A stretch of DNA of 64,000 bases, from NCBI GenBank assembly GCA_905178155.1, contig CAJINV010000011.1:2163503-2227502 (forward strand), read 5' to 3'. This DNA is from Amoebophrya sp. A120. Taxonomy: Eukaryota > Protista > Dinoflagellata. The notes below the pieces were generated by a model, which did not search any database, was not told the DNA's origin, and saw nothing but the letters and a program-made list of their open reading frames with translations. Both the position numbers and the translations under genes were made by a program. Positions 5,101-54,688 of the stretch are shown in pieces; within the stretch, counting starts at the first letter, position 1; each line of letters starts with the position of its first letter.

Positions 5101-8100
5101 CAGCGGTTTCTGTGGCACCAAAACCTGTGCGAGGAGCGGCGGTTGCTGAATTTGGACGACTTGGGCAAAACCTACACGGTGCAAATGAAGGGGAAGCCGC
5201 AGATCAGCGGGGGAAGCAGGTATTTGGCGGATAAATTGGTGACGAAGGACCTCTACATCCCCCCCGGCGGCAGTGGGCAGCAGGGCTACTCCTGGCGGCT
5301 CGAGGCCGCGCAAAAGGCGGAAAACAAGGAGTGCACCTTTCAACCCAAAATTTCACAACGGTACGATAAAAGTATTCCGTGCAGTTTATTGATGTTGCGT
5401 GATCCGATACACTTATGGTACTTCTTTTCGACAGCTTCTCTCTGCATGAGTATATGAAAATGAAGCAGTAGTTGTAGTAGAGTGCGCCTGCCGCGCCCGC
5501 ACCGGAGAAAATAATCTTATCCGCTACAATTATCTTCTTCGATCCGACATTGTCAGCAGAAAAACCCGAACTATATGACTCACAGGTCCCGGTCTGTGGA
5601 GCGTGATTGGCGGATTCTGTATGAGGACGCTGCGAAGAGACGGGAGCGGAATAAGGAGCGGGAAAAACAGCAGGGCATGGACCAGCTGCAGGGGGCGACG
5701 TTTCACCCGAGAATATCCGAGTTTGCGAAGTCGCGCTCGGTATGCATTGCAAATATGTCTGGGTCTGGAAACTTGTGATGCTGGGCTGGGAACAGACTGA
5801 ATGCTCTGTAATGCACAGCCGAGCATGAGAAATAATTTGCGCGGCTTAGTGTTGCCTTTTTCGAATGATAAGCTGCGCTTTGCATGACAAGTAAAAGAGT
5901 CTCTTCTTGGACACGCATCACAAACTCGTCAGTCATGCCAGACAAGCATGACAAACCTGGCAATCTTCCAGACCCAGACACATTTGCATTTGATACTCGG
6001 GGGTGATCAACTCCTCTGGGGCGCTGGACGACTACCTGGCGCACCTGCAGTATCCCAAGCAAAAACGTCCCCGCCCCATAGTCAAGTTGGGAATCTAGCA
6101 ACACAAATCTCCAAGTTTTGGGAGCTGTGCATGACAAGTTTCCCTCTACTGCAGTGTCGTGCTGGTTGGCAAGGGAAGCCGCATGAGACAGCCACTCCTT
6201 CATCCTGTTTACAGCATTACAAATTCTAAAACGCGATTGGTAATACCTCGCATGCCGCTGCGCATTACAAATGTTCCTGTCATTGCACATTTGCATGACA
6301 ACTCTGGGGTGGGGACGTTTTTACTCAGGATATGCAGAAGAAGGACGAGAGGCTGCTGCTGACAAGACAAAAGTACGTGGACCGAATGGAACAAGTGCAG
6401 CGGGAGCTGTGTCCCTTCAAGCCAAATCTGATGCACGCCGCGGGGCACGTACCTAAGGTGGAGTCCGCGTCCTTGGACACCTTTAAACTGTACAACGAAC
6501 TGCGGCACGCCAGGGATGCAGAGGTGCAGGACAGAATTGGGGAGGAAAAAAACTACGCACGGGAACAGGCCCGGCTGGCCAGGAGCAGGAGTCGTACTTA
6601 CTCTGAATTAGCTTGATGCAGCTGTTCTTGCTGGTTTTTTGGTTGTAGTCACTAGCGATAGGATTTTAAAGCGCGAGATTTGATTTCCACATTCGACGAG
6701 ATAACAGACTCAGGAGACACGATCATGATTATCAATTTAAGACGAATGATCTGGGAAAGAAATCGATCAAACTTCCCGCAGCTGACGCCGCCAATTCGTC
6801 CGATGGTGGGAACAACAATACGGCGTCGAGGAGTCGATCGCAGTCCCAGCCGCCGTCCCAACCTCGCTCGCGCTCGCCCACAACGACGAACACCGGGGCT
6901 CCAAAAATGCTCTCCGAGAAAAAGAAGGATAATCAGCTGCAAAAATGTCTGGGTCTGGAAGATTGCCAGGTTTGTCATGCATATTTTGAATGACCCATGA
7001 TGTCTGTGATGCATGCCGTAGCATCACAGATTTTTAGAGGACTTTGTGATGCCTCTACCGCATGAGAAATGCCCTCTCCACGTAGCACACACTGGAGTCC
7101 TTTTGCTGGTCATGCAATACAAATTTTTTTAGAATCCAGAGACAGCATTACAAGTTTATAATCTTCCAGACCCAGACACTTTTACATTTGATAAAGGAGA
7201 TCTTGATGCAGAAGTTCGCCCACGACCAGGCTATCGACATTCCGAGCAAAACCGCGAAAGCCCACCCGAAACACACGCCGCTGACCAAGTGGGAACCGAG
7301 CCGGTGGAGGCCGATGAGCGGATCAAAAGGTGGTTCGAAGTCCCGTAGTTCCCCGGCGAGGGGCAGTCGCTCCGCTTCCCCGGACAATCTTCCGCGCGCA
7401 CGACGTTCCCTCACTGCGGTTAAGAAGCCGGAAGCGACGACGAAACGGGAGCCGTCGCACAAGCACGGATCCGTGTTGTTCAACCACGTCCCGATCAACT
7501 TCGACCCGACGCGGCGGTCCGTGCGGTCCGACGCACATCTATCTTCGAGCACCGGAAATGATACAAGTAGTGTCGAACAGGGAGCGGTGAGCAAACTGAT
7601 CCAGAATTTCTCGCGCGAAAACAAGCTTTTGTCATCAAACGCGGTGGAGAACTTCTCGTCGTCGGATAGAAGTCGCAGCAACAGTCCGAGTCCTGTTCCC
7701 GCACGACCTCCGTCTCGGAAAACAGCCCCGAATCTTCGCGAGACGAACAGCGGCTTGGCTTCCACTGCCGCGGGAACGAACTTTGGAAATTCCATGAATC
7801 AGACGGATTCCGGCGCTTCTGCCTCGCCGGTCATGTACCACCGGGGGGTTGCCATCCCGACCGCGACGTTTGTGCCGCGGAAAACGGCACCGATTGAGGA
7901 GGAAACACCAAAGAAGAGCCGCGTGACCAATCTGTACTATGCGGAGCCGGGAAGTGGTGATGAGGCCTTGAATGCGTTTTACAAAGGCGCTTCTTCTACA
8001 CAAGCATTACAGATGAAAACGAACAACAACCCCAGCGCCGGTGTTCCAAAGTTACCCTTGAACAGTACCGGCGCGAGTCGGCAGTGGGCGCAGGCGAGAC

Positions 8101-8543
8101 GGGAGAAAGAAGACGTGTGGGAGGAGCTCCTTGGCGCGAGCGAGTACAGTAACAGTGAAGATGTGATCTCGGACGTGTCGTCGGAAAAGCAGCAAGCCAT
8201 AAAACCTTCTACTTCTCTCCAGTTTAACAAGAAGAACAGCAATCACCAGGCTCGCGACGACGCGGAACAAGAGCGTCGATTGCAACCAAAGATTCTCTAT
8301 CAGCCGCGCAACCCGCAGGAGAAACACGAGTTGCAATCTGCGCAAGCGGCGGTGAGCTATGCGAAAGCGGTGGAGAATCTGGAGCGCATGACGAAACACA
8401 TCTCGGCACGCAACCAGTTTTTGGAAGCGTCTTTAGAAGCTACCGAGGTAGCGGAGCTTGATAGGAAGTTCGGCAGAAATAACAACTACGCGGGCGGCAG
8501 TACTACTAGCGGCTCAGTGGGTCCACGGTGGGACACCTCGTGA
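2163..8543 (+). CDS. Large multi-exon Ser-rich protein with about 8 (E)CTFxP(K/R)(I/L) repeats; several GT-AG introns plus 3 introners
   Basis: ORFs at 2133, 4226, 4759, 5575, 6332 and 7188 appear to be exons of one gene; introner junctions are in frame. Motifs DFTFQPK, NCSFSPRL, NCTFTPKI, ECTFQPDL, QPTFKPRV, ECTFQPKI, GATFHPRI, LCPFKPNL. Not all canonical intron boundaries were fixed. Confidence 0.7.
2880..3023 (+). repeat. Coding minisatellite, 8 x 18 bp (TCCAGCCGCAAAGAGCAG) encoding SSR(K/T/A)EQ
   Basis: Directly visible tandem array, 144 bp. Confidence 0.95.
5741..5995. mobile_element. Introner, TIR family A
   Basis: TAT..ATGTCTGGGTCTGGAA ... TTCCAGACCCAGACAC..GATA; DR CTCGG/CTCGG; removal gives KSRS-GVINSS. 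Confidence 0.93.
6051..6332. mobile_element. Introner, TIR family B
   Basis: TATCCCAAGCAAAAACGTCCCC ... GGGGACGTTTTTACTCAGGATA; DR TGCAG; removal gives AHLQ-KKDER. Confidence 0.93.
6930..7193. mobile_element. Introner, TIR family A
   Basis: Family A TIRs, left end TAATC variant; DR AAGGA; removal gives SEKKK-EILMQK. Confidence 0.9.
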
Positions 8544-12700: not shown

Positions 12701-15700
12701 GACGCATCCGGACAGCCACTTGCGACGCCGACGCCCATATCAAATGTAAAAAAAATGTCTGGGTCTGGAAGAGGAGAAGCTTGTCATGCACATTATCCAT
12801 GATCCATGATGTCTCTGATGTATGCAATAGCATCACAGATCTTTTGAGCGCCTATCGATGCGCGGCCTGCATGACAAATGCCCTCTCCGCGTAGCCAAAT
12901 TTGACTCCTCTTGCTGCTCATGCAATACAGATTTTTTTAGCATCCAAATGCAGCATCACAAATTTGGCTCTACCAGACCCAGACATTTTTGCAATGCATA
13001 ACCCAAGTCCGCGGCCATGCGCGCGACTTTCGCCAAGGCAGCTTCCGCGTCCGGAAATTTTGCGGCGGCCGCGCCGGGGACAAATGCTAATTTGATGAAC
13101 AAGAATAATTATCTCCACCCGAGCAGTAGTTCCACAGCAGTTCGGAGTACTTCTTCTTTCCTCGCACCGACTAGCAAAGAGGATCCGGAAGATGATGTTG
13201 AGATGGTAGACGCCACGACAAGCACCACTGGAATCATCGCAGCAGGAGTTGGAAGTGCCGCAAGTTCAAGTTCTATGGCGCAAAGGCACCAACTTCCGAA
13301 TAGCGCAATTCCACCGACGACACTGCAGATGAAAGCAACAAACTTATCGAACCAGCAGCAACCGCCGGGGACCATCTCGTCGTCGCAGCTGCCTCAGCTT
13401 CCCCCAGCTACGCGTGAACTGTCGTCGGGCACCAGTACGAGTTTGAAGCGGCCCACGCCGTCGGAAGTAGTAGATCTCAACTACGCCTCCAGCGCGATCG
13501 TCCCCTGCTCGGAAGAACAACCTGGGATGCAGTGGAGCAAGTCGGATCCCACGCACGACAAGTTGTTTGATCCGCGGAGCTTGATTGATCAATTCAAATT
13601 GAAGAACGCGCCGGTGGGCCTGCACAAAAATTCTAAACCGTTCTTGCAGAACAGCGAGACGGAGGACCAATCGGCCCGGGCGCGAAAGAAAGCGAAAGCG
13701 GCGGGCCTCAGCGCGAAGGACGTGAAGAAGCTCGAGGCGTCCCGCGCCAAAGCGGAGCTGTTTGGCAAGGCGACGCCGGGGCGGTCGACGAAGCTTGGCC
13801 ACATCCCGCCCATCGTGGAAGCGAACCAGGAATTGTCCAGTTCAGTGTCACCGCAAGCAACACGACCCGCGGGGGCTCTTGCGAAGGTTAGTGCTGCGCC
13901 GGTAAAGACGATGGTGGTCGTTCCTCCAGAGGTAGTTTCTGCACAGCCTGGCTTAGTTGTCGGCGGTGGAGGTTCCTCCTCGTCGTCATCAGCGAAACAA
14001 CCTGCATACAAAAACGAAAGCGCAGCAGTAGAACCGTCCAGGTCTGCGCCCCCGCCTGTACCGAAGAATAAACCGGACGAGAGACTGCTGCCTGAGGATG
14101 ACAACTTGCACTATGGTACGATTGATTCGCGTAAAAATTCGCCAGAGGTGGATAAAAACAGCGATAAGAGAAATGCAGCTACGACGACCGCGGCGGCCGA
14201 CACCATCGTGGCACCAGAAGTAGAGGCACATCAAGCGCATCGTGATCGTCGTGTAGGCGGAGGAAGGAATCAAGAAGTGGTAGTCCAACAAGAAGATGAT
14301 AATAAACCACTCACAACGAGGACCACTCCGGTCCTCGCCCTCGCGAAGTACTACGAGCCCGACCGGGACTACATCGCGAACCCGCGGTGGTACAGCCCCA
14401 CGGATCCGGTGGATGTCGCAATCGGCAAGATCCCACCCGGGAAAATCATGAGCTGGCGGTGCGAACAGTACGGGTACCCGATTCACTACCACATCTACCG
14501 CGATAAGATCGACGGCTCCTTGCGGGACTTCCACACCGGTCGGAAAGTCCACTTCATCGACAGTACCTCCGGGGAAAGGGTCCCGCTGAAAGACGCGCTC
14601 ATGAGGCCAACAGAGGACTTTGTTCGGAAGTACCTGGAGGGCCGCGGGGGAGATGAAGTTGCCGGCGTGCTGGAAAACGGAGCGGAAAGTTCTGGTAAGC
14701 GAGGCGTTGGTGACCACGAAGAAGACAATTTGTACCAGCGAAGTAGCAACACCCGGCAGAACATCGCGAAGGCGGCGAGCACGCGGCTGTTTTCGAACGA
14801 GACTACTGGAGGTTCTTTTGCTGTGCAGCACTTGTCGTTCAACAACGTAGAACCAGCACCAGCAGGGGAACATCAAGCTTCTGCTTTCGCAAAGTCCCCG
14901 CCACCGAAGAGGCCATTTCTTGCAGCTGCTAATATCGGCGGCAACGGATCCTCGACCATCTCTCAGGCTGGCCTGCCCATCCCGTCGGGCGCCGCGGGCC
15001 TGCCGGTCCCCGGGGGATCCTCGTGTTCCTTCCGGAACGGGTTGCCGGACACGAGTGGCTCCAGTCCCGATTTGCCGAGGGAGCCCAGTCACGGAACGAC
15101 CGTGGTGCATCTGCCGGCCGCGACCTCGAGTAGTCTCGTGCGGCCAGCGGGGATCGACATGACGCAGTCGTCTCCGCCCGAGAGGATGGTGGAGCCGGGC
15201 GGTGGGGCGAGTATGAGTAGCAACGGGGACTGTTTCCGAATTTTGCGGAAGCAGCCGGGCTTTAGCGGGGATCATGCGACGAGTCCTTCTCTAGCTGTGT
15301 TTAGTACTAACAATAAGTACGCAAGTGTTGAGACGAGTGGTGCGGTGAATGGTCCTCTTCCAATCGCAGGAGCTGCGACGGAGTCTAATGATACTAGCGG
15401 CAACCTCCACGCAGCGTCCTCGTCGAGTCTGGGTCGGCAACCTCCATCGGGAGGTGCGGAGCAAAGCAGAAGGGTTCCTCCGAGCGATTCGCTGGGCATC
15501 CTTTCGCGGCCAGGAGCGGCACTGCTTGGTGGAACCACGGCAAATTCCACCTCTGCTCTCGTGCCCATTGGAAGTACTATGAGAGAAGGAGATCCTAGCG
15601 CAGCGGTGGCTGGTGATGATCCACCAGGACCCGGGGCAGACCAAGGCAGTGCCGGCGCAGACCAGATAGTAGCGGCAGAACCGTTATCAGGGTCGATTGG

Positions 15701-18167
15701 CAGTCGAGAAATAAAGCAGCCGTCAGGAGGTGACGTGGAAATGAATCTTCGTGCAGCTTCTAGCAGTTCAACATCTGTGAACAATAATTTTTACACCGGA
15801 CTGCCCTCGCTGTCGCTTCCCAATGCTAATGGAAGTGGTGCAGGTGCGAGAGTTCTTCCCGGGCAGCTGCTGGCACCGCTAAGTGGCGGGTCGGTAGCCT
15901 CGTCCTCCTCCAAGCCGCCCCTCGCCCCGCCAAACACAGCCGATCGAATGCCCTCCTCCGCTCTGGACGAAGTGTTGCACGAGCGGCCGCGGCGGATGTC
16001 CTCACTGCAACCAGTGGTCGCCGGCAACAACACGTCCGGCGCCTCCAGCAGCAGTGCGCCACTGGTAGCCGCGCGGTCGGCCTCCTACTCGCCCACGAGC
16101 CGGCGGAACCGGACGGACGCGGACACGAACAAGGAGGGCACCGCCTTTGACGCCCACGCGTTCCAACGAGGCTCCTCCCCGCCGCGACGGGCGCACGGCG
16201 AGCAGAACCAGGACGACGGGGTGCCCAATCAGCAGCCCACGACGGTCAACGAAAGCACGGACTTACCGCGTTCCGCGCACCTGCAGCGGACCAACATCGA
16301 CCCCAACGACCCGAAGTATAAGGAAGCGTTCTTCGCCGGCGCTGTGTCAACCGGGGGCTGGGTGCCCGTCATCTACGAGGGCGCAGCGGCAAAGCTGCAG
16401 GGGGTACGGATTTGTATGTTCATTTCAACATTGTTATTTTAACCGACTGCTTAAGCGACCAATTTGAATTTCAATTTGGTGGAGTGAGATGAAGTTGTGT
16501 CCTGTTTTGCTACCATAAATAAGGAGGCTGCAGTATCTATTCTTTCTTCATCTTCCGCAAAAATCAACCTTCAAACTAACTGCAGGCTCCCGAGCAGAAG
16601 CAGATCCAGGGCCCCATCGTCGTTCGTCGACCTGGGTCTCGTGCCCTTCCGACCGAAGAGGAGGCAGGAGAGGGAGCGCAGAACAAACTGTTACCAAGCA
16701 GTGGGATTATCAAGACGGAAACAGCTACCTCCTCAACCGCGAATAACAGGGACAACAAGCGCGTGCGATTTTCCGAAATCTCCGACATTCGCGAGTTGGA
16801 CAGCCACGAACTTCCAGACTTTTCCATCGAGGGCGAGCCCCTGGTACTTGTGCACAATAACAGCAACGGTTGTCGTGACACCAACTTTTCGAACCTTTCC
16901 GCGATCCCGCACCGGCGGTCTTCGGCCGCTCCGGATCAACATGCAAATCCAACAGCGTACGGAAACTGCAACCCGGTACCTGGCCTACCGGTCGGGACGT
17001 ACTGGAAACAGAAGGAGGGTTATCGTAAGGAAAAATCCCCCCTCCCCATATCAAAAGGAAGTTTCTGATGCTGGATTTGCGTACACAAATCAGATCTGTC
17101 TTGCAGAAAGTGCTTGGCGGCCGCATTTTCTAAGCCTGTTTGGATATGCAGAAGGCTAGCAATTAGGCATGACAAACAGGTTTGCAGTAGTCAAAAGCGC
17201 ATGACAGACTGTCTGCGGAATGCGCCACATTGCTCCCATTACCGTATAGGCAAGACAGAGGGTATTTGTGGCCACAAATCAGCATCACAAATTTCCTTTT
17301 CGATATGGGGAGGTGGGATTTTTACTTTTGATAAGGGCAGAGACACCATCCACCGGTTTGTCGGGTCCAACGTCGGCGCGTCGGAGGACATCAACGGAAC
17401 GTACCCGGATAACGGGGACGTCTACCGGGACCGGATTTTCAACCCGAATTATCTCCCCCTGCCCTTCCGCGCGAGCTCGAAGAACGCGAGCACAAACTTC
17501 GCGCTAGTATCCGCCGGGCGGAAGATCAAGATACCCCGCGGCGCGGTGCGCGACCGGCTCTCCACGCAGATCCGACACGACCACCGGGAGAAGGTGCTGA
17601 AGAGCCGCCGAAATCGGCTGGACTCGGGCAGCGACAGCGAGCCTGCACAACAAGAACATCCGATGGACAGCAACAACCGGCGGCCGCGCATGAGTGACGT
17701 GCCCTGGATCCGCACGCCCCCGCATGATAAGGCCTACACCTGGGAGGAGGGCGACTGGCTCCAGACGCCGGAGGGAAAGAAGCCACCGGAAAAACCGGCT
17801 GACCAGGCGAAGTGGCTCGACAAACCGCCCAGGGCGGCGAGAAGGTACTTATGCTATGCAATTAATTGAATCGTCTTCGTCTTTTGTCGGCATCCATGAG
17901 GGTATGATTTCGATTTGCAACTTCATCGAGAGGAGATTCTGGTCGATTTACTTTCGTTTGCACTGTGTACTAAAATCCTTCCTGCGCGTACCACAGGCAC
18001 CTCGCGGAGGCAGACGAGCTCGATTTTGAGTACGAGTACTTCGTCACACTAGCGTACACGAAGCCGGGCGATCCACAGCCCGTGCCGCACGCGTCGGTTC
18101 TGGCGGATAGCTTCCAGAGCTGTATCGACGTGTCGTCGTCCCATGTGCACCATCAGCAGTCTTTTGC

Positions 18168-18198
<31 letters not shown>

Positions 18199-21100
18199 GC
18201 GCAAAACCAATCGGAGCGGCCGCCCCCGTTCGAAATGAATAACCAGCAGATTGTTCCCACGCCGCCAAGTATGGCGCCCTCGGACCCGAGAAACAACGCG
18301 ATGATTATGTCAGCGTACATATCCTGAGTAAAAACGTACCCACACCAGAGTCAGGATGGGGATTTTGCAACACAAACCTAGGAGTTTTTAGAGTCACGCA
18401 TGACAAATTTCAGTTCGTACTGTAGTGCAGATTAGCGTGGACAGCCGCATTACAAATCCATCTGCTTATCCTGTTTACAGCATTGCAAATTTTGGAACAC
18501 GATGGGAAATGCCTACCATGTGTATGCGCATCACAAATGTTCCTGTCATTGGAAATCAGCATTGCAACTCTGGGGTGGGGACGTTTTTACACAGGATAGT
18601 ACAGCGACCGGTCCGCCTCCGCTGCGGTCCTCAGCGGTAAGATCAGTCCGGTACGGAGTCTGGCGGACCGGGAGCGCGACGAAGCCGAGAAGGAGCAAAA
18701 TAACAGTCAACATCAAAACGCGAGTCAGGACCAGCAACAGCAAGATGAAAATCAGCAGTCCTCTAGAGGTACAGATCTCCACGACCAAAGCAGCAACATG
18801 CAGCAACGGAGTAGGAACGAGGACGAAAGCGCGGCTTTTCATTCGATCGTGGAAGACCGTTCTTCGTTCCTCCGGATCAGCGAGGGGGAGCACAGGCCGA
18901 AAATTTCTCCGCCGACCTTTGGCATCGCAGGCGTGACCGCCGCGGAACTCCGGGCAAAGGAAGTGTCCTTTGGTGGGGACCATCAGGGGGCCTTCGACCC
19001 GCACCCGGGGAACAATTTGAATGGGGTATTGGTTTAGTTTCTAAGTTGTACTTATCTCCTACGATGTGTTTCAGTAGATTCGAAGAATGGTCAATATTAC
19101 GAGTAGACGCACGAGGAAGAAATAGTGGCTGCATTTGTTCAGTAAGTCGCTGAAATAATAAATCTATCCCTGGAATCCCGTTTTTATTGTGTAATGGATT
19201 CTGTGTCGAATTCGTCATCTATCATGATGCTACTTCAAATCTTCAACAAATACAAAACAGCACACGCCACAGTTTGGCGCGCAGCATCCGACGCCGCAAT
19301 TTGGCGGTCTGGTTCCCCGCGGTGGCCTGTTTGACCGCGAACACGAGCATTCGCCCGGCCCCAGCTTCGTACCGTCCCCGCGTGGGGGCCGGCTGCCCCA
19401 CGTGACCTCGCCCGTGTTCGTGCCCAGTCCAAAGGGAGCGGACGGGGCGCGGGGACGGGACGCGGAAAATCGGGTAAGAAAGTTTTTTTACTTGTAGCGT
19501 GCTTATTGGGTTTAGGTTTTCTTGTTGTTACGTGATAAAGTGTAACAAGGTGAAACAACCTTCGCAATGTCAAAAAATCGCAAAAATATCTATCATGCCC
19601 TACAGGTTTTCACTCCTGAAGATCCGCGTGGTAGTTTCCCAGCACATCAGGCGCTGGATCCGGAAGCGCAGCGACGCCTTGACGCGATCCAGGATATTCT
19701 AGTGTCCAAGGGGCACGACGCAGAAGCCGCGCTGCCGCTGGCCAAGGAGCTGTTATCCGTGCTGAGATCGGAGGAAGAGGTCACGATTGAGAACCTGCAG
19801 GAAGCGGAGAGACGACTGCAGGAAGCGGCAGAGTACGATTCAAATAGATACAACTTTACAATGAGCTTACTGTTTGTGTAATGGATACTGTCTTCCTCTT
19901 CCGAGTTGTATGCCGAACAAAAAGAAAAATATGATCCAAAAAAAAAAGAAAGTCTATGAAGCACCAACATCCCGGTTGTACCACCTACAGCATTTTCACA
20001 GGCTTCGCAAGATCGCGGATTTTGCCTATCCGGTGATGACTTTGTCTGAGGAGCGAGACTTCCAAAAGCGCACGGAATCCAGGATTCGGGCCGCTGACTT
20101 GAATTACATGACCGAGGATCAGGTCGACATGCTGTTGTGGCAAATGTGCGTGCAGGAGGAAGTGCGCCGGTTGGACCGCCTCGGCGCGCAGCCCGGCGGG
20201 CCGGAGGGCGTGGCCGCAATGGCGGAGTACAATTAGATACACGCTGGCTAAAAGTTTTTCTTGATTTCGATATTTCTAAGATTTCACATCTGTTGCTTTC
20301 TCAGCGGCCAGTTTTGTCATACTTATGCAGGTGCTGCTTCTTGCTACATGAATTCCATGGCAAAATAAATGATTTTCAAACCACCAAACTCTGACGTGAC
20401 TCTCACAGCGCCCTGGACGAAATGATCTCCATGTCGTTCGACCACTTCCAGGAGGAGGACGGTGATAGTAATTCGTTGCAGCTCGGAAAGCAAAGGCCGG
20501 CGAAGACCCGCGAGCAGATGCTGAAAGAGGCCCAGAGTCTGCAGCAGTCCGCTGTTAACATCGAGAGGGAGACCGAGTTTTGGCGCAAGGGCAAGGCAGA
20601 CACGTCGAAGCACCGACTGCCGCCGTCGATTCTGGAGGACATGCGGAGGGTGGTGGCGGAAAACCTGGACACGCGGAATGTGGTATGCTATTTAAAAGCG
20701 TTCCCACCCCATAGTTGTCATGCAGATTTGCATCGACAGAAAAATCTGTAATGCACATCCGCAAGAGAGGAATTTGTAGTCGCGTTTTGGGATTTGTAAT
20801 GCTGTAAACAGGATGAGCAGGCGTCTTTGTGATGCGGCTGTCCTTACTAAACAGCACTACACTACAGATGGAAACTTGGCATGCAGAACTCCCAAAACTT
20901 GGAGATTTGTGTTGCAGATTTACCAACTTGACTACGGGGTGGGGATGTTTTTCCTCAGGATATGTGGACATGGAGGCGCTGGTCGGGGCGGAGTCCGCGG
21001 AGGGGGAATTTTCCCTGCACCTGCTCGAGCAGTTTTGCCTCGACCACCAGCAGCTCACTGCGGAGATGGACCACGCGCAAAAGGTGCGGGAGGAGGGAAT

Positions 21101-40500: not shown

Positions 40501-43309
40501 CTTTTCTAAAACTGGTAACGCTAACGCATGATAGTGCTGCGATTGTTCTTCACTGGTGATTAAGATGAAGTCAGAATTCTACTGGTTGTCTACTTGTATT
40601 ACGAGAAGGTGATAATGACATAGATGATAACTGCCAACAGGTTTGCTGCGTTTTGGGTTGCCGCCGAGGAAAAAGGCGACGGGCAAGCGCACATCCGCGC
40701 TGCGCAGACGATTTGCAAGATTGCCGCCCTGTTTTTCGATGAGGACGTGGATTTCGTGAAGACCGTAACGGCCCGGTTTCAGCCGGGAGCGTTCGCCGAG
40801 TTCCAGCGCCGCCACGAGATGCAGAACTTGCCCCCGTTACTGCCCCCCCTCTCCACGAACGCCCCAGCCAATAACACGCCCGGCGGACAGCAGGGCGGGC
40901 AACATCAACCCCCCACGCCCGCGGGCGCGCAGACGATGGCGCACGCGCAACAGCAGCTGCAGCAGGTGGGTGCAGCAGCAGTTTCGATGCAGCTCCAACA
41001 ACAACAGCAGCAGCAGAATATGGATAAGGACCGGTCCCCCGTCACGCCCGGCACCACGACGAACGTGGCTGCGGGGAACATGATCGTTCCCCCTGGGATG
41101 ACACCCGGAGGCACGATGAACAGCAAGGGCGGACTCCCGGGTAACGCCGGCGCGAAGTTTCTGATGCCGATGCAGCCGGGGATGCCGATGCCACCGCAGG
41201 TGGTGGGTGGGTTCACGCCCACGGGCCCGCAAAGTGGGAAGAACTTGTTGCACTTTCCCGGACAGCAGCACCCGCCGGGGGTTGGCGCTCCCGGAGGACC
41301 TCCTGGAGGTTTCCCGCAGTACGGGCAGTTGCCGCCCCCCTACGGCACGCCGAACGCCGGAACGGGACCTCCCGGGTTTCCCCACCCGGGCACGCCGGGC
41401 GGATTCCCGGGCAACCCGGGGGGCCCCACGCCGCCAGGCGGATTGCCACCGCAGCTGCAGGTACAGCCACCACCCGGGACAAAGGGGCCCGCGCTGAAGC
41501 CCGGTGCTATGCCGCCCATGTTCCCGCCGGGGCTGGTGCCGCCCCCCGGAGTGCCGATGCCGGCCAACTACAGTCCGTTCAAGGGGAATCACTTGCAGCT
41601 GATGCAGCTGCAAAGCCCGCGGGGCGCCGGAACCATGCCGCCGGTATCTGGGCCGGGGGGACCACAGCAACCACAACTTCCTCCAGGGGTTTTAGTACAA
41701 CAACCTCCTCCAGGAGGACCCGGTGGACCACCGCAGCTTTTACCCATCGGAGCGGCAGGAGTTGCACTGGACCCCGCAGCTGCACAACAGATGGCCACCA
41801 CGACATCCTCCCCGAATGCAGGTGGAGCACCCGCAGCTTCGGCTGCACCAGATTCGCTGCCGTTGCCTGTCACTGAAAACAACGAGGATGAGATGGACGT
41901 TGACGATGATGACAAAATGGGCGTCGATAGTATTATTGCGAATAAAAAGTCTTCGTCAAAACGGCGGTCGAGCAAGCGCTCGTCCAAGCGGGACCGCAGC
42001 AAAAGCAGTTCTTCCTCCGAGCTGTCCGATGAAGCTTCCGGTGCCGCGCGGAAGAAGAATATTAAACAGCGCCGTGGGTCGTCCTCATCGGCTAGTAAGA
42101 ACAATTCCAGTGATAATAACGAGGAGGAAAACGTCGAAAATGAAGATAAAAAGAGCGGCAAAAAATCAACAAACATTGAAACCAGAAGTCGGCGCAGAAG
42201 GAGCAAAGAGAAAAAGACGACTCGAAAAAGCAAGAGCAGTAAACGAAGCAAGAGTAAAAACACCTCCCGAAGCGGGTCGAATAAATCGAAGAGCAGCAAC
42301 AGGTCGAAAAGCAGCAAAAGTAACAGCAGCAAGAGCGCCAGAGACCGCTCCAAGTCATCGAGTAGGAGCTCGCGAAGTCGAAGATCCAGCTCGCGCGGCT
42401 CTTCTAAGTCCTCGCGGTCCAAGTCTAAAAATTCCGACCGCTCTTCTGACAGCGATGAGGAGTCCAGTGAGGTGCAGGGACCGCTGTTGGAAACCCCGCT
42501 GGAACTGAAGCAAATGGCCAGCACGTTGCATTCCGGAACGAGCGCGGACGGGTTGCAGAGTGCTGGGCAGGGTGCCGGCGACCGAAACAACACCACGGAT
42601 CATCCGTTGGATGAAAACCTTTCCAAATCTTTGCAAAAAGCGAAGAACAAGCAGAAGCAGAAGAAGGACATGCTGACGGGGATTAAGCAATTAAACGTTT
42701 CCAACACGTTGTCCGACCTGCGGGACCGCCGGGCGGAGGAGCAGGTTCGCATCGTGAAGACCTACGCCAGTGAAGGCTGCCAGACCGAGCAGGCGCCGGA
42801 CTTGTATGATCGGAAGAACCTCGTGAAGATCATGACGGCCCGCGCGGACCGGTTCGTGTCGTCCCGGACAAAAGAGGAAATTGACGCCGACGAGGAAAAA
42901 GGAGTCTCTATCCCAAGTAAAAACGTCCCGACCCCATAGTTGTAATGCAAATCTGCACGCTGGAAATGCAAATGTTTCTCATGCGGAGCCCCATGAGAGG
43001 CGTTTTCTACCCTAGTGCTGATTTGAGATTTGTCATGCTCGAATCAGAATGACAAACTGGATCTGTGATGCTGCTGTACGAGCTAAACACGACTAAATTG
43101 CGAGCCCAAATTTGTCATGCGCAACAGCCAAAGCTTAGGGATTTGTGTAGCAGATTTCCCATCTTGACTCCGGGGTGCTAGGGACGTTTTTACACAGGAT
43201 AGTCTCTCACTGTCCCGACATTATGCCCGACTTCTCGTTTGATCAAGCCTCATCTCAGCCGGAGGTGACAAACAAAGCGAGCGGACTCTCCACGATCATG
43301 GAGGAGTGA
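37585..43309 (+). CDS. Hypothetical protein with low-complexity N-terminus, small helical core, Pro/Gly/Gln-rich region and Ser/Lys/Arg-rich region; 3 exonic introners plus GT-AG intron 40171-40640
   Basis: ORFs at 37501, 39660 and 40624 join in frame (RCV-IEFF, PPE-LTPV, AMLR-FAAFW, KGVS-HCPD...IMEE*). Confidence 0.7.
39422..39637. mobile_element. Introner, TIR family I (single copy here)
   Basis: TATGAGAGTGCACAAC ... GTTGTGCACTCTCATA; DR CGTCA; frame restored. Confidence 0.93.
39874..40137. mobile_element. Introner, TIR family A
   Basis: DR GGAGC; removal gives PPE-LTPVRL. Confidence 0.93.
40192..40460. mobile_element. Family B element nested in a canonical GT-AG intron, right TIR lost (end approximate)
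   Basis: First 69 nt identical to the copy at 18320; similarity stops after GACAACTCTGG near 40450; no GGATA end and no DR seen. Confidence 0.85.
42909..43201. mobile_element. Introner, TIR family B
   Basis: DR GTCTC; removal gives KGVS-HCPD. Confidence 0.93.
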
Positions 43310-45442: not shown

Positions 45443-48400
45443 ATGCGCAAACTCTCAAAGCGGTGCATCTTCTTGTCGGCGGCCATAAGTGCCGGCGGCA
45501 TGAGCATGATGCTGCACCAAGCCAGTGCGAGCACGGCGGCCGCGTTTGCAGCACCGGCTGCGGTGGCCATTTCCGAAAGTGGTCGTGGCTCCAGTGGTCA
45601 AGATCCTCGCGCCGGCCAGGGAACTACTGCGGAAGCAGGAGCGCATAATAATTCCCTGGTAGTTCCAGACACCGAATTCCAACTGGTTTCGTCACAAGAT
45701 CTGAAAGACTTATCTTCCGACAAGAAGGCACCGGGTGGGTTTCAGTTGATTTCCCCTCGAAAAACCAGAACGGTCAAGCTTCCCGGCAAGGAAGGACAGC
45801 AGCAGCAACCTCTACACGGAGGTGGGAAGAGTAATAAGCACAAAGGTTCTCGTGGTGAGAAAATCAATCTCGGCCCATCAGACCCAACCGAGGTACACCC
45901 GCAAGCGGAAGCGCTCTTGCGGATCTTAAACCAGAGTAGCAAAGTTGAAGAGGAACAACACCAAAGGCAGCGGTTTCTCGAGGATCAGATTTTGCCGAAA
46001 CTGCAGCAACGACTGCGGCCGATTCTGGAGCAAGATTCATCGCCTTCTTCCACGCCGAAGAAAGTTGGAAGTTTGGATAGCCTAGACGATGAGAGTGATG
46101 GAACAAAAATCGAGGAGATGATAATGTTGAAGTGGCAGAAAAACAAAAACGTCGGCAAGAAGATACTTGACATCACGAAGAGCCCTCCTACAACTACATC
46201 AACTTCCCACTACTACACCGCCGAGTTGAAAAAGCTCGGTGGCTTTGCACTGGGCCTCGCCTCGGACCGCGCGTTCGATTTGCAGATCTCGCTCCATTTC
46301 GATTTCGCGCCAGACACGCCGGAAATGTCGCGACAAGTGTCGAACAAGAAATCGTTCCTGTTCCCGAACGGCGCGCCGCGGATCAAGCTGTTACTGGCTC
46401 TCGAGAACAACTCTCCAGGCTATCGGATGAGTGCTGAGGATAAAGAAGAGCTCGCGCACTGGCGCACGCACGTCTTGAGTCACGCTGCCCGAACGCTGTT
46501 CGGCTCAGCAGGTTTTGAAGATACGGAGGTTGCGCGGCAGAAGAAGACGAACCAACATTTACCACTATTTGGGGCATGCCCCTCGGAGAACATCGGTAGC
46601 TCGGCGTACGGGGTGCTGGAGCAGCTGCACCAGGAAGGGATTTTGCCCTCCAACATGACTATGCATTGCAAATATGTCTGGGTCTGGAAGGTTGGAACTT
46701 GTGATGCTAACTTTGGACTCTAAAAAAATCTGTATTGCATGACCAGCAAGAGCAGGCGCCCGGTTTGTGTTACGCGGGGAGGGTATTTGTCATGCGGGAT
46801 AGGCATCAGGAAGGCCTCTAAAAATATGTGATGCTAGATCGTGCATTACAGACATCCTGAGTCATGCAAAATGGGCACGACAAACTAACCTGGCAACCTT
46901 CCAGACCCAGACACTTTTGCCCTCCAACATGACCACCGATTTGCTACCCGCAGTTAGCGCAGCAAGCTGCATTGGCAGTAGTTTTTCGCGTTCTTCGCCT
47001 GGCAAGAAAAGCTGCGCGTCAGACACAGCAGGTGAAGATGACCAGGAACTACAGAGCAAGGCCTTTCTGTACATTCGTTACGGCGATTCCGTTCGCATTC
47101 GTCTGACCGTGGCAGATTACCGACGGGCTGCTGAGACGGATTTCTTGAAGAATACATTGGCTAAGTTTAGCTTGAAAGGGGAAGCGGTGCTGTTTCGGAT
47201 CGTGCGACAGGTACACCTAACATAGAAACAAACCATGCAGAAGATAAAGATTCTTCCTTTGCAAAGTCGTGATATCAAGTATTCGTTCATTCTTGCTAGT
47301 AAAGGGTCGAGTTGGATGAAAGAGGGATTGTGTTCTAGTACTTCGCAATCATCGCAATTAAATCCCAATTCCCAGTTGAAATTCTGGGCCGAAGCCAGCG
47401 GCAAAGATTGGCTGCGCGCGGCGGACCACCTGGCGCTCGGACTGGCTCTTGCGTATTTGAAAGACGAAAGAACGGATTTTGGCTCCGCAACCCTGCAGGG
47501 ATTTTTCGAATTCTACACGACGATTCTTTCTTCGCACAGCGGCCGCCGCTGCTGGCCCCGACGTGGAGTCGTTGCTGTTCCGGCGTCCTCCTCTGGGGCA
47601 AGTCGAGAAGATCCTACGGTGGGAAGTACAACAGGAGAGAAGAATTTTTCCAGCCAGATAACACCACCAGCAGCACGTCAGGATTCCAGTGAAGATTGGA
47701 TTATGCTGGACGGTAAGGAGGACGTTGAGGGTCATGCCGCTGCCGAGTCCGCTGGTCATGTCCGCCTGGTAGCAGCTCCTGCGGATCACGGCGTATCCAG
47801 CTCTTTTGGTGGAAAAAGTTCCGCCTACTGTCCGTCTCCGTCCGTTAGTTCATCCCCCTACGTGTTCAACAACAAGAACCCCCACGAAATTACCCTGCCC
47901 AGGCACCAGCCGAGGACGCCAACGCAGCAACTTGTCAAGCCGTTTCTGGTGATGGCGAAAAGCATGCACGACATCGTGCCACCGACCCTTGTTGCCTCGG
48001 TGTTTAGTACTATGACCACTCCTGCGGCAGCTGCCACTGCTTGTTCAACAACATCTTCTGCCGGTCTAGTATCCTACGAAGGAAGTTGTACACGACATCA
48101 AGAACATCCGCAACAGACGAGTGTGACCACGAATGTCCTTGAAGACATTGTGGCAGCAGACTCGGCCTGCACGCCTGTGCCGGACATGTGTCGTGGAAAT
48201 AAGAAAGACGATGAAGAAGAAGAGCTCATCCTGTACTGCAAAACACAGGACAGCGAGTTTTACGTGAAGCCGAGTACCGCGAAGCAGAAAAAGTCGTCGA
48301 AGGGAAACAAAAAGATAGCACCAAACAAGCAGTCTTGCACCTCCTCGCCCGAGTTAAGTCCCGCCAGTTCTACTTCCTATTTCCCGCCAAGCAAGACAAC

Positions 48401-49782
48401 TTTGGCGCCGACTGGCGGTATTAGCGGACAGAAAAAGAACAAATTCCTCGGACGAGAGGAAGAAGAGACCACTAGCGGCTCTTGCTGCAAGCACCGAAAT
48501 GGCAGCCAACACCAGCCTACGCGGGCCAGCTCCCCGCCCGCGAGCGCGGCGCTGCTTTGCAACAACATCTGCCGTGGGGTCTTGCCTTGGGCGACGAGTG
48601 GTTCTGCGGGTCGCGACGGTCGTGGTGCCACGGATCATGCGGGCGGGAGACGCACGAAGGTCGAGACATCAAAATCCGCTATGATAGGCAGTCCCATCCT
48701 GGCAGGGAGTGTGAAGACAAGGGAAGAAGGACAAGCAAGCAACCAGGAGGTGAAAAAAGGTGACTCAGTCCTCTCAGGTCGTGCAGCGGTTCCCTTGCAG
48801 GAGACAATGCGATGGGAGCACGTTGGAGAACACCGGCCGCAGCAACCGCAGCGGCAGCAATGTGAGGATGACGAGTGCGATGGTTGGGAACAACTTGAAG
48901 TAGACGCAGACATGATGCAGTCATCTTCTACCCCCGCAAAGCAAGACCAAGACGATGAAAATGAAGCAGCACCAGCGCCAGCAGTCCCTGATGAAGACAA
49001 AAACAGGAAGTCAACATCTGCTGCGATGAAACTGCTTGAGCGCCTATTGTAAGGAAAAATCCCCCCTCCCCATACCTCCAAAGCGGGATACGTATGAAAA
49101 TTTGTGATGCTGATTCGAGGCCACAAATCGTCTCTGTATTGCCAGAAGGCAAATCCCAAGACCTGGCCGCGTTCTGCAGGCAATTGGTGATGCTGTAGGA
49201 CCTACGGAAAGAGGATGTGCCTGCCTTGCTAGGCGCCTACACCAAAACGCCCCTACTCCGGCTTTGCATCTGTTTGCAGTCCTCTACTGCAAGACGAATC
49301 CGATTTGGGTACACAAGTCTCGCATCAGAGATTTCCATTTCGATGTGGGGAGGGGGGATTTTTCCTTTTGATAGTCCCTGCAACCCGCGATGCAGATCCA
49401 ACTCCTCGATGACTTCGAGTACGCCGCCCGCTTGCTGTATGGGAGTGTCAGAATTGAAATCGTCAAAGTTGAAACGATTTGTCATGCATAAAATGCAGCC
49501 CACAAAGTGCTTGTCTTGCAGAGTAGGCAAGTGAGGCAGATTGTAAGCCTGTTGAGGGGTAGCATCTGAGCTGCTAAAATAGCATGACAGAAGGCGTCTT
49601 CCTTACCCAAACAGCATGACAAACTGGATTTCGGCTCTACCCAAATTTGTCATGCGCCACTTAGAAACTGGGTTGCAACTGGTATCCATTTTATGCATGA
49701 CAAACCATTATTTCAACTTTGACGATTGCGATCCTGACGCTTCCATATGCTGCGAAATCTGACCGCGTCGGAGAAGAAATAG
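45443..49782 (+). CDS. Hypothetical protein, possibly a degenerate TRF4/Cid1-like nucleotidyltransferase; 3 introners plus GT-AG intron starting at 47211
   Basis: LGGFALGLASDRAFDLQ resembles hG[GS]x9-13DhD; FRIVRQ-LKFWA...LALAYLK...LQGFFEFY resembles the poly(A) polymerase central domain. By-eye similarity only; the gene is more certain than the product call. Confidence 0.5.
46660..46928. mobile_element. Introner, TIR family A, right terminus replaced by exon sequence (19-bp DR)
   Basis: TTTTGCCCTCCAACATGAC occurs at 46641-46659 and 46915-46933; removal gives PSNMT-TDLLP. Confidence 0.88.
49045..49373. mobile_element. Introner, TIR family C
   Basis: DR GCGCC/GTCCC (3 of 5 match); removal gives LLER-LQPAMQ. 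Confidence 0.88.
49438..49747. mobile_element. Introner, TIR family D
   Basis: DR TGCTG; removal gives ARLL-RNLTASEKK*. Confidence 0.93.
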
Positions 49783-52964: not shown

Positions 52965-53415
52965 CATTTCGATTTTTAGCATCAATAGATTCGCAATAGA
53001 TTCGAAACGCGAGATAGCTCAGCAGGACGAGTGCAAGATTTTTAGCAGGTTGACGCGCTTGAGATAGCGGTAACGAAAATGTGCTTGTCTTTATGCAAGA
53101 TGAGTTTCGAGTTCACGGATAGCGGAAGTTGTGGAAGGTTGTGAGATAACATCCAGTGCGGATGTGGCTGCGCAGGCTGTTCGAATGATTATCCGAAACA
53201 AGTGACTCCCAGATGATCCGTGGATCAACACGCAAGAAAACTTTTTTTTGGAATCTGATCTCAATTTCTTTTCCCTCGTCCTCTTTTTTGTTATCGCTTT
53301 CGCTTTCCAAGGATGCAACGTCTTTGCATGCAAATATACTTACACCGTAGAAACCTCCTACCGCACAAACGAAATGCATTTCGACGTTCGAAAAAACCTT
53401 AAAGTACTCGAGCTG
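52965..53415 (+). repeat. Diverged non-coding direct repeat, copy 1 (boundaries approximate)
   Basis: Colinear blocks shared with 54755-55252, e.g. ATTTTTAGCA, ATGCAAGATG, GATCCGTGGATCAACACGC, ACGAAATGCATTTCGAC.TTCGAAAAA, AAGTACTC. Confidence 0.85.
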
Positions 53416-53695
53416 TAGAAAGATTGATAAAGGGGCGGGAGCGAATAATTGGAGCGGTTGTTTGCGTCGAGATAAGTATAAATATCACATTCGTTTTGAG
53501 AGAATATTTTCTTCTTCACCGCAAAGTGGCACGCATCGACTGACATCAAAGGGGAAAGGAAGTTTCGTAATCCCCTAGAGCGAGGTGGAATTTTTTTTTT
53601 TAAGCTGTAGCGATTCTTCGGTCGCCCTCCTCGCGGGAACACTTCTTACCTTTCGACGAAGTTGTAGTTTACGCGCTCAGCACGTAGAAACTACA

Positions 53696-54688
53696 ATGGC
53701 GGACACGACGCTAGTGACCCCTGCTCCAACCGTCGTCGCCATCGTTGGTGCCTCCGGCGGTGTCGGCTGCAAGGTGGTGGAGTGTGCGCTCGCGCAGGGC
53801 TTTGTTGTGAAGGTGCTGGTGCGCAACGCCGAGAAACTGGCGAAGAAGATCGGGCAGGAGAACGTCGACAAGCTCGACAAAATCGTCCTGGGCAGTGTGG
53901 ACGACGAGGCCGCGCTCAAGCAGCTGCTCGAAAACGCGTCCGTGGTGGTCTCCTGCCTCGGCATATCAAATGTAAAAATGTCTGGGTCTGGAAGGTTGCA
54001 ACTTGTGATGCTGTCTTTGAAAGGTAAAAAAATCTGTATTGCATGACCAGCAAGAGGAGTTCAGTTTGTGCTACGCGGAGTGCGCGTTTCTCATGCGGAA
54101 TACGCATCAGAAGGCCCTTTAAAAGTCTGTGATGCTCGGCCAGGCATTACAGGCATCATGGGTTATGCAAAATTTGCATGACAAACCTGGCAATCTTCCA
54201 GACCCAGACATTTTTACATTTGATACGGCACCCCCCCGAAAGAAAAGCCGATCGTGGCGGCCGGTACGGCGAAGATCCTGAAGCAGATGGAAGAATGTAG
54301 CGTGAAAGACCTGGTGATGATTTCGTCTATTTGCGTCGGAGATTCGCTGCCGCAGGGGAAGAAGGTCGCGTGCTGCTTCGCGAACTGCATCCGACCACTG
54401 ATTCTGTCCAAGGTGTTCGCAGACCTCGAAATCGCGGAGAAAATGTGCTTCGAACAGCAGGGAAAACTCTCCATCGTCATCGTGCGGCCGCCGCACTTGA
54501 CGGACAAACCGGGCACCGGGGGTTACCAGTGGACGGACGCGGCAGATTTTAACCCGGGGGCGCCGGCGGCGATTTCGCGGAGCGACGTGGCGCTGGCGAT
54601 GGTGGATCTGTGCAGGGGGGATAGCAAGTTTAAGGAGCTCGCGGGCACGGCGCCGAGCCTGTTTCCGGCGAAGAAGATGAAGGCGTGA
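53696..54688 (+). CDS. NAD(P)-binding Rossmann-fold protein, flavin reductase/biliverdin reductase B-like atypical SDR; 1 introner
   Basis: VAIVGASGGVG, V.VLVRN..KL, VVSCLG, VMISS, IVRPPHLTD.P.TG and ISRSDVA are typical motifs of this family. Confidence 0.85.
53964..54225. mobile_element. Introner, TIR family A
   Basis: Perfect 30-bp TIR TATCAAATGTAAAAATGTCTGGGTCTGGAA; DR CGGCA; removal gives SCLG-TPPKEKP. Confidence 0.96.

What the first reader, a model, noticed from the sequence alone, without database searches (positions are those of the whole stretch)
5741..54225. A shared 10-mer GCAT(G/C/T)A(C/G)AAA is scattered through elements of unrelated families
GCATGACAAA, GCATCACAAA, GCATTACAAA, GCATGAGAAA and their reverse complements occur several times per element (about 7 in 5741-5995). 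They appear in families A-I although TIRs and interiors are otherwise dissimilar, and look rare in exons and intergenic DNA by eye. A motif kept across unrelated families suggests a common protein binding site (subterminal transposase sites or a splicing factor) or internal pairing that folds the RNA. I do not recall this being described.
Basis: partly seen in the sequence, partly recalled or inferred. Interest (0 to 1): 0.8.

Follow-up and report, generated by a model that had tools for sequence, protein, structure and literature searches.

The report
Shared docking code in jumping introns
Dozens of small transposon-derived introns in this marine protist's genes, from families with different ends, all carry the same 9-10-letter word in a spacing that matches turns of the DNA helix, likely as docking sites for the still unknown protein that moves them, which would give a bait to catch that protein.

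Summary
The motif is real: 71 exact 10-mers in 9,985 bp of 36 elements, 1 in 54,015 bp outside, 0.4 expected from shuffles. In 355 further copies found without using the motif, 348 carry it. The elements are MITE-like introns with TAT...ATA ends and a 5-bp target duplication, matching the published Amoebophrya A120 introner elements. They are not unrelated: ends are shared and interiors partly align. Sites are arranged: same-strand pairs 30-33 bp apart in 14 of 15 family consensuses, first sites about 41, 50 or 61 bp from the end, and motif columns more conserved than neighbours in 10 of 10 families. Sites show no bias to the transcribed strand and no consistent covariation, and elements lacking a site pair or exact sense-strand sites are still cut from RNA-like contigs (17 of 17 listed joints remove element plus 5 nt). 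Best reading: double-stranded DNA binding sites used in transposition, like subterminal repeats of Muta1, but shared across families (0.6). No protein was found; binding is inferred. A DNA-bound splicing mark is not excluded. I found no description of the motif in the papers searched.

The parts
5741..5995 (.). Family A element; 9-mer sites 5773-, 5806-, 5823+, 5882+, 5915+, 5946+
   Evidence: 5-bp duplication exact
6051..6332 (.). Family B element; sites all on +: 6098, 6129, 6214, 6262, 6293
6930..7193 (.). Family A element; sites 6972-, 7004-, 7021+, 7044-, 7060+, 7114+, 7145+
   Evidence: left end moved by one base by eye
12738..13000 (.). Family A element; sites 12781-, 12830+, 12869+, 12922+, 12953+
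17021..17333 (.). Family C element; sites 17063-, 17096-, 17167+, 17199+, 17250+, 17282+
18320..18598 (.). Family B element; sites all on +: 18367, 18398, 18447, 18528
20684..20962 (.). Family B element inserted the other way round; sites 20715-, 20746-, 20761+, 20794-, 20827-, 20907-
   Evidence: reading frame runs on after removing element plus 5 nt
23663..23906 (.). Family A element, 8 sites; absent from RNA-like contig with one duplication copy
   Evidence: (table 8)
24211..24490 (.). Family B element; sites 24290+, 24339+, 24372+; absent from RNA-like contig
   Evidence: (table 8)
24873..25138 (.). Family A element; sites 24915-, 24963+, 25002+, 25090+
25327..25590 (.). Family A element, reversed; sites 25397-, 25451-, 25493-, 25542+
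25639..25944 (.). Family D element; sites 25679-, 25728+, 25793-, 25896+
28712..28980 (.). Family A element, reversed, 6 sites; joint 28706-28981 skips length+5
29511..29817 (.). Family B element, 5 sites on +; unequal duplication copies place the 5' cut at -1 or 0
29890..30141 (.). Family A element, reversed, 5 sites; joint skips length+5
30180..30501 (.). Family C element; sites 30234-, 30266-, 30318-, 30418+, 30450+; joint skips length+5
30570..30845 (.). Family E (A-related) element, 2 sites, no 30-33 bp pair; joint skips length+5
31133..31427 (.). Family F element; sites 31175-, 31206-, 31234-, 31377+ (the + site is the GCAA variant); joint with 163 nt on the short side
31808..32118 (.). 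Family C element, reversed, 5 sites; joint skips length+5
32181..32442 (.). Family A element, 5 sites; joint skips length+5
32671..32981 (.). Family D element; sites 32712-, 32744-, 32814+, 32847+, 32883-, 32932+; upstream duplication copy kept in RNA
33997..34240 (.). Family G element, 3 sites, no 30-33 bp pair; joint skips length+5
34414..34675 (.). Family A element, 4 sites; upstream duplication copy kept in RNA
34721..34997 (.). Family B element, 3 sites on +; upstream duplication copy kept in RNA
35111..35498 (.). Family F element, 6 sites; joint skips length+5
35678..35889 (.). Family H element; sites 35709-, 35725+, 35741-, 35800+, 35834-
   Evidence: no joint listed, loose ends at 35677 and 35890 fit an exon join (table 7)
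36061..36221 (.). Family I element, 161 bp, 1 site, no pair; joint skips length+5
36376..36694 (.). Family B element, degenerate, 3 sites on +; 5' cut at -1 or 0
39422..39637 (.). Family J element; sites 39470+, 39502+, 39550-, 39597+
39874..40137 (.). Family A element; sites 39914-, 39963+, 40002+, 40056+
40192..40470 (.). Family B element with a damaged right end (boundary uncertain); 4 sites on +
42909..43201 (.). Family B element reversed: all 5 sites on -, none on the sense strand
   Evidence: a 755-codon frame runs on after removing element plus 5 nt; not covered by the RNA lays
46660..46928 (.). Family A element, reversed, damaged right terminus; sites 46699-, 46730-, 46787-, 46843+
49045..49373 (.). 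Family C element; sites 49102-, 49134-, 49322+
49438..49747 (.). Family D element; sites 49479-, 49511-, 49582+, 49614+, 49647-, 49695+
53964..54225 (.). Family A element with a perfect 30-bp TIR and 7 sites, splitting a NAD(P)H-binding domain gene
   Evidence: Pfam PF13460 positions 1-69 and 76-181 on the two exons

Best explanation
The motif is a conserved, helically spaced word inside transposon-derived introns that likely serves as a binding site on double-stranded DNA for the protein that moves these elements (the transposase or a partner), and all families likely share it because they belong to one transposon system. Shown: enrichment, conservation within families, 31-33 bp pairs, about 10-bp phasing from the ends, no strand bias, removal of element plus 5 nt from RNA-like contigs in both orientations. 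Inferred: several protein subunits bind two or more sites on one face of the helix near each end, bring the TAT ends together and cut with a 5-bp stagger; copies with good sites transpose more, so the word is kept while spacers drift. Inferred: splicing relies mainly on the end-to-end RNA stem, not on this word. Untested: the identity of the protein; an integrase-type (Ginger / IS3EU-like) enzyme is the best lead.
For: Enrichment 71 vs 1; 348 of 355 copies found by TIR and duplication alone carry the 9-mer. Same-strand pairs 30-33 bp apart in 14 of 15 family consensuses, null mean 2.9, 0 of 5000 randomisations; 155 such pairs in non-A copies vs 23 expected. Nearest outward site 40-44, 49-52 or 60-63 bp from the end, 18 family-level modes, R=0.73-0.74 at period 10-10.5. 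An inverted half-site (TGC) sits 6-8 nt before the second site in 10 of 21 spacers vs 0.9 expected. Motif columns more conserved than other interior columns in 10 of 10 families, 0.90-0.92 vs 0.74-0.81 when matched for base; differences from nearest neighbours 0.02-0.03 at fixed motif positions vs 0.05-0.09 elsewhere inside, about the level of the TIR core. No strand bias: sites 547:600, family A 76:89, family B 10:14. Removal from RNA does not need a pair (E, G, I). Rare copy-specific changes hit motif, TIR and interior at similar rates and rise together with duplication decay (0.014/0.021/0.019 to 0.020/0.028/0.026). The smallest family (109 bp) is two TIRs plus one 32-bp pair. Analogue: Muta1 12-bp subterminal repeats with 3-4 bp linkers raise transposase binding and excision (PMC5499845, passages). 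A120 family 38 is listed as Ginger, 5-bp TSD, TA/TA termini (PMC12130899 supplement file 8).
Against: No protein was found: no transposase among the 100 longest of 225 open frames in the fetched loci, no long coding element between matching ends, and PMC7789003 reports no transposase in A120. The inner TIRs differ by family and are highly conserved within each, which would normally mean different transposases, so one shared site needs a shared domain or partner. Sites are spread through the whole interior and point inward in some families (clusters 1 and 11), unlike a strict end-facing array. Families are related, so the family-level p-values overstate independence, and sites were defined on the same consensuses. 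The after-insertion test is weak: fixed motif positions differ from neighbours at about 0.03 per site while the two duplication copies differ at 0.054, which leaves room for some constraint after insertion. Short-loop inverted pairs show z of 0.4, 1.6, 2.7 and 5.0 for complementarity.
Confidence: 0.6

Rival explanations
1. The word is a DNA-level mark read by a host (perhaps domesticated transposase) protein that recruits the unknown machinery which cuts these introns from the nascent RNA.
For: A DNA mark would be strand-blind, as seen. All families need the same precise removal (17 of 17 joints skip length+5, only cut offsets -1 and 0 fit all) and U1 snRNA was not detected in A25/A120 (PMC7789003). 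One word across families with different inner TIRs suits a common host factor. Motif divergence is not above the per-copy decay of the duplication.
Against: Elements with one or two sites and no pair are removed (E, G, I). Copy-specific changes hit motif sites at close to the interior rate and rise with age. The word is not depleted elsewhere, as might be expected of a harmful ectopic signal. Terminal TAT is more constrained (0.015) than the motif.
Confidence: 0.14
2. The word binds an ordinary host DNA-binding or chromatin protein (for example an ApiAP2-type factor) that helps the elements spread or be tolerated but is not part of the cutting complex.
For: Its first letters resemble TGCATGCA, bound by PfAP2-EXP in apicomplexans (PMC6631176, passage). 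A host factor explains sharing across different TIRs. Phasing fits any DNA-bound multimer.
Against: The match is partial and the GCAA variants lack it. The word is not enriched in the window's intergenic DNA. Fixed phase to the element's end is more typical of a transposition complex (inference). No such protein was examined here.
Confidence: 0.1
3. The word works in RNA, either by pairing with inverted copies to fold the intron or as a site for a single-strand splicing factor.
For: In A, C and D predicted motif-with-motif pairing is 0.39-0.59. Inverted pairs with 7-8 nt loops show z 0.4 to 5.0. The near-palindrome could look alike on both strands.
Against: Family B has nearly all sites on one strand, pairing 0.06, and occurs both ways round in genes. 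Across 45 correctly registered site pairs z runs from -5.8 to +5.0; the outermost A pair is below shuffled (7.77 vs 7.92 of 9). A ends with unequal distances are common (47 of 133). A ban on A at position 5 is a sequence rule, not a pairing rule. F 31133 is removed with no exact sense 9-mer.
Confidence: 0.1
4. The word is a passive relic of common ancestry, copied and shuffled with interior modules and under no selection.
For: 13 of 136 consensus pairs align beyond the motif at p<=0.005; C and D align over about 110 bp, B and J over 36 bp. All families share ends and duplication length.
Against: Motif positions are clearly more conserved than spacers within families; spacer length is kept while spacer sequence differs; position 5 varies but avoids A.
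Confidence: 0.05

Closest known systems
Amoebophrya A120 introner elements (Farhat et al. 2021, PMC7789003; read: abstract, passages, section 16, supplement text search; figures not visible)
   Same: Non-canonical introns with terminal inverted repeats starting TAT, seven variable letters, then AAA; short direct repeats at the borders; lengths of 110-320 bp that match families listed in PMC12130899 supplement file 8 (about 107, 149, 160, 209, 234, 252-262, 278, 305, 317-321).
   Different: The paper describes ends only in what I could read; it leaves the border position open and doubts transposase-mediated movement. Here: an interior motif with fixed geometry, a 5-bp duplication (289 of 388 exact) and a 5' cut at -1 or 0.
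Subterminal repeats of cut-and-paste transposons, e.g. Muta1 of Aedes aegypti (PMC5499845, passages); Ac, Hermes, En/Spm TnpA sites recalled, not checked
   Same: Several short repeats inside the ends, 15-16 bp period in Muta1, more copies giving more binding and excision.
   Different: Those repeats are specific to one element and run in tandem; here one word is shared by at least 15 families with different inner TIRs, in pairs 31-33 bp apart and both orientations, through the whole interior. Muta1 makes 8-9 bp duplications. Binding is not shown here.
Integrase-type DNA transposons: IS3EU/GingerRoot, IS481EU, Ginger (PMC10045372, PMC6839031, passages) and A120 family 38 (PMC12130899, passages and supplement row)
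   Same: TA..TA or TNT..AYA termini; family 38 has TA/TA termini, a 5-bp TSD and integrase-like coding fragments.
   Different: IS3EU/GingerRoot duplications are usually 6 bp, IS481EU about 4, 15 or 25 bp, Ginger ends are TG..CA. 'Subterminal' does not occur in the GingerRoot paper's text. No coding element was found here.
Euglenid nonconventional introns (PMC11282704, passages)
   Same: TIR stem joins the intron ends, duplication-like repeats at the borders, unknown removal mechanism.
   Different: Different terminal letters; no interior motif mentioned in the passages read.

Membership tests
Amoebophrya A120-type introner elements | Inverted repeat starting TAT, 7 variable letters, 3 or more A | tested here: met
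   Family-weighted logo: T 0.97, A 1.0, T 1.0, then A 0.70-0.93 at positions 11-14; D, J and cluster 7 deviate at 11-13
Amoebophrya A120-type introner elements | Direct repeat of 3-5 nt at the borders | tested here: met
   5-bp duplication exact in 26 of 36 window elements and 289 of 388 copies
Amoebophrya A120-type introner elements | Removed from transcripts without GT-AG | tested here: met
   17 of 17 listed joints skip length+5; no allowed cut gives GT..AG. Runs are guessed RNA, one study; a canonical intron is missing from the same contig
Amoebophrya A120-type introner elements | Repeated, in many families | tested here: met
   391 copies in 20 clusters
MITE (non-autonomous TIR transposon) | Short, TIR, target duplication, no coding frame | tested here: met
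   stops in all three sense frames in 34 of 36
MITE (non-autonomous TIR transposon) | Cognate autonomous element with the same ends | tested here: inconclusive
   None in 545 kb of fetched loci or the window; no whole genome was available
Subterminal transposase-binding repeats | Several copies near both ends in fixed spacing | tested here: met
   also present in the middle of the elements
Subterminal transposase-binding repeats | Bound by the transposase and needed for efficient movement | not testable with these tools
   No protein in hand; needs binding and excision assays
IS3EU/GingerRoot | TA..TA termini | tested here: met
   definition from PMC10045372
IS3EU/GingerRoot | Usually 6-bp duplication | tested here: not met
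   5 bp here; not filed as a member
IS3EU/GingerRoot or IS481EU | Integrase-like DDE transposase | tested here: inconclusive
   Not found; reported for A120 family 38 in PMC12130899, whose sequence I did not see
Single-strand splicing enhancer | Present on the transcribed strand | tested here: not met
   547 sense vs 600 antisense

The most novel reading that the evidence does not exclude
All the thousands of introner families of this genome are one system read by one protein: a domesticated integrase-type transposase that docks on the phased motif array and TAT ends, spreads the elements as DNA and also marks them for exact, spliceosome-independent removal from the nascent RNA, the inner TIR serving only as a stem.
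Probability: 0.1. Interest if true: 0.92.

Novelty: new variant of a known kind. Interest (0 to 1): 0.6.

Why it matters
How the tens of thousands of non-canonical introns of Amoebophrya A120 move and how they are removed without a detected U1 are open questions (PMC7789003). A shared, phased interior word turns the first into a direct experiment: a double-stranded array is a bait for the missing mover, and a scrambled array tests whether the second depends on it. It also suggests that the many strain-specific families are one transposon system, offers a motif-pair signature for finding degenerate copies, and, with the cut placed at -1 or 0 of the TIR, narrows the splice border that the paper left open.

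Tried and rejected
Depletion of the word outside elements: not significant in the window (CATGACA 0 vs about 4, nominal p 0.01-0.02, picked after the fact); in loci it is in excess because undetected copies remain. Covariation: the first run mixed orientations in family A and was redone by projection on the consensus; 4 of 49 rows were mis-registered and dropped. An EM run seeded with the motif drifted to a blurred palindrome and was not used. Search for the mover: no long TIR-bounded coding element; Pfam on the 100 longest of 225 open frames gave host domains only; three TIR patterns found nothing in viral contigs. No whole genome or record handle was available. Run X9 (raw RNA reads, same species label) covered only TIR-like pieces at 90-95% identity and told nothing on splicing; no RNA holder is on record as RNA. 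Reverse-transcriptase skipping across a hairpin was considered: unlikely as the sole cause, since 34 of 36 elements close all frames and element-only bins have depth 0-2.6 against 9-25 in exons, but direct RNA reads are lacking. DNA-level loss was considered: contigs of run X5 run through elements (table 8). ApT-methylation context (recalled) was dropped because the GCAAGACA and GCAACACA variants have no ApT. After-insertion selection test: inconclusive. Earlier scan notes held nothing on this genome or sequence.


Full report
Observation. The exact 10-mer occurs 72 times in the window. I delimited 36 elements by eye and refined them by end match and duplication. 71 copies lie in these 9,985 bp and one in the other 54,015 bp; 200 dinucleotide shuffles of the elements give 0.4 on average, at most 3. 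Every element has at least one. An unseeded k-mer count on TIR-masked interiors puts GCATGACA (63 inside, 0 outside) and GCATCACA (33, 0) on top. The first element has 3 exact copies and 7 with one mismatch. The fuller word is GCA(T/A)(G/C/T)A(C/G)A(A/G)(A/G); position 5 is almost never A. Outside it is at background, not depleted.

What the elements are. They are 161-388 bp, begin TAT and end ATA, have A at positions 11-14, and are flanked by a 5-bp duplication with no sequence preference. This matches the introner elements published for Amoebophrya A120 (PMC7789003, passages), and family lengths match rows in a supplement of PMC12130899 (file 8, parts 15-17 of 33). In contigs of runs guessed to be RNA (X1, X2, X3, one study) 17 of 17 listed joints at elements skip exactly element length plus 5; 15 of the 16 elements in 28300-36800 have a listed joint and the last has matching loose ends. 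Some joints have under 30 letters on one side. One such contig also lacks a GT-AG intron, and contigs of run X5 run through elements. In 5 of 5 cases where the two duplication copies differ, the upstream copy is kept; only cut offsets -1 and 0 from the TAT fit all 17. A, C and F are removed in both orientations.

A larger sample. A scan with a family A end pattern returned 164 loci from one public assembly; after dropping 7 redundant loci and trimming overlaps 157 remained, 544,528 bp. A detector using only ends and duplication found 364 elements (24 of 36 in the window, 0 in one shuffled window). Nine longer than 420 bp were set aside; 348 of the other 355 carry the 9-mer. With the window's copies they form 20 clusters, 17 with the motif; the three without are single copies. 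The sample is biased to family A and to younger copies.

Are the families unrelated? Not fully. Clusters share no alignment over half their length by construction, but 13 of 136 consensus pairs score at p<=0.005 against shuffles that keep the sites in place, and 50 at p<0.05 (this null also shuffles site flanks and is lenient). C and D align over about 110 bp, B and J over 36 bp. Ancestry and module exchange explain the origin of the word. They do not explain its retention: site columns are more conserved than other interior columns in 10 of 10 families, also base-matched, and differ from nearest neighbours about as rarely as the TIR core.

Geometry. Same-strand sites 30-33 bp apart occur in 14 of 15 family consensuses (null 2.9; 0 of 5000; five clusters left out: one A derivative and four single copies), with unlike spacers. 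Opposite-strand sites often sit 15-17 bp apart, and a TGC half-site lies mid-spacer in 10 of 21 pairs (0.9 expected). The nearest outward site lies 40-44, 49-52 or 60-63 bp from the end (18 modes; R 0.73-0.74 at period 10-10.5, seven periods tried). In the window the nearest sites point outward 45 to 0, but two clusters in the loci point inward. The smallest family is two TIRs and one 32-bp pair. Families are related, so these p-values overstate independence.

DNA or RNA? Using a strand model that called 68 of 74 held-out chunks correctly, sites fall 547 on the sense and 600 on the antisense strand (p=0.12); family B, whose sites nearly all face one way, lies 10 to 14. F at 31133 has no exact sense 9-mer (one variant site) and is removed; E, G and I have no pair and are removed. 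Reversed B at 42909 has no sense site and the frame continues if it is removed, though no RNA covers it. Predicted folding gives the TIR stem in most elements (0.88) but motif-with-motif pairing of 0.06 in B. Complementarity between inverted sites scatters from z -5.8 to +5.0 over 45 pairs; the outermost A pair is below shuffled, while short-loop pairs are mildly positive. So pairing may occur but is not the common function.

When does selection act? Rare copy-specific changes hit sites, TIR core and interior at 0.014, 0.021 and 0.019 and rise to 0.020, 0.028 and 0.026 in copies with a decayed duplication (370 copies). This leans to selection among copies that go on to transpose. It is weak: sampling is sparse (nearest neighbours 11% apart), the interior figure is undercounted, and the two duplication copies differ at 0.054 per site, more than sites do. 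Some constraint after insertion remains possible.

Mechanism. Most likely (0.6) several subunits of the transposase or a partner bind the word on one face of the helix near each end and help pair the TAT ends for a 5-bp staggered insertion. This is inferred from geometry and from the Muta1 analogy (PMC5499845, passages). The ends resemble integrase-type DNA transposons (PMC10045372, PMC6839031, passages) but the duplication is 5 bp, not 6, so I do not file them as IS3EU/GingerRoot; A120 family 38 is listed as Ginger with 5-bp TSD and TA/TA termini. No mover was found here. Rivals: a DNA-bound host mark for splicing (0.14), an ordinary host DNA-binding factor (0.10), an RNA role (0.10), a passive relic (0.05).

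Novelty. The elements are known and subterminal binding repeats are a known kind. A word shared across families with this phasing was not in the listings of six searches nor in the passages and supplement text read; the one paper holding the 8-mer has it in a primer. Figures of PMC7789003 (including the logos of Fig. S25), files 13-14 and most of file 8 of PMC12130899, theses and subscription papers were not seen and could mention it. Verdict: new variant of a known kind, interest 0.6.

Noticed in passing
window 29509-29822, 32666-32983, 34409-34677, 34718-35001, 36374-36699: Where the two duplication copies differ, RNA-like contigs keep the upstream copy: the intron starts at the TAT or one base before it and ends 4-5 nt past the ATA, whatever the letters. 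This narrows the border left open in PMC7789003.
   Followed up: partly
L009:13466-14720, L066:3862-4492, L065:571-1051, L032:632-1465, L034:10307-10763: Five retrotransposon-like inserts inside introners join at the CATG/CGTG of a motif site; three have 8-21 bp duplications starting at motif position 2, three have ATC/ATG/CATT-type tails, and L009 and L066 share an end. About half of interior CATGs are in motifs, so the target may be CATG or the motif: possibly a retroelement using these introns as a safe haven.
   Followed up: partly
TIR positions 4-10 of families A, C and cluster 1: The seven letters after TAT often mismatch between the two ends (0.1-0.55 paired at several positions, no more than chance), giving a TAT/ATA pair, a loose segment and then a long stem. 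In a few families this segment itself resembles the interior word.
   Followed up: no
L019:1641-1751 and L019:5259-5367: TAT-type elements nested inside other TAT-type elements; the first has no exact motif but one-mismatch variants.
   Followed up: no
L043:4815-5015, L021 from 683: Old-looking copies that keep recognisable ends but have no exact motif; whether they are spliced is unknown.
   Followed up: no
window 34040-34155: Inside element G an extra stretch with two internal palindromes and a short direct repeat replaces part of the interior.
   Followed up: no
window 59900-62800: Three to four diverged GC-rich repeats of about 900 bp period with no TAT-type elements and no motif.
   Followed up: no
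window 52950-53410 and 54760-55240: A diverged duplication (about 80% in blocks, 1.8 kb apart) of intergenic DNA on both sides of the NAD(P)H-binding gene.
   Followed up: no
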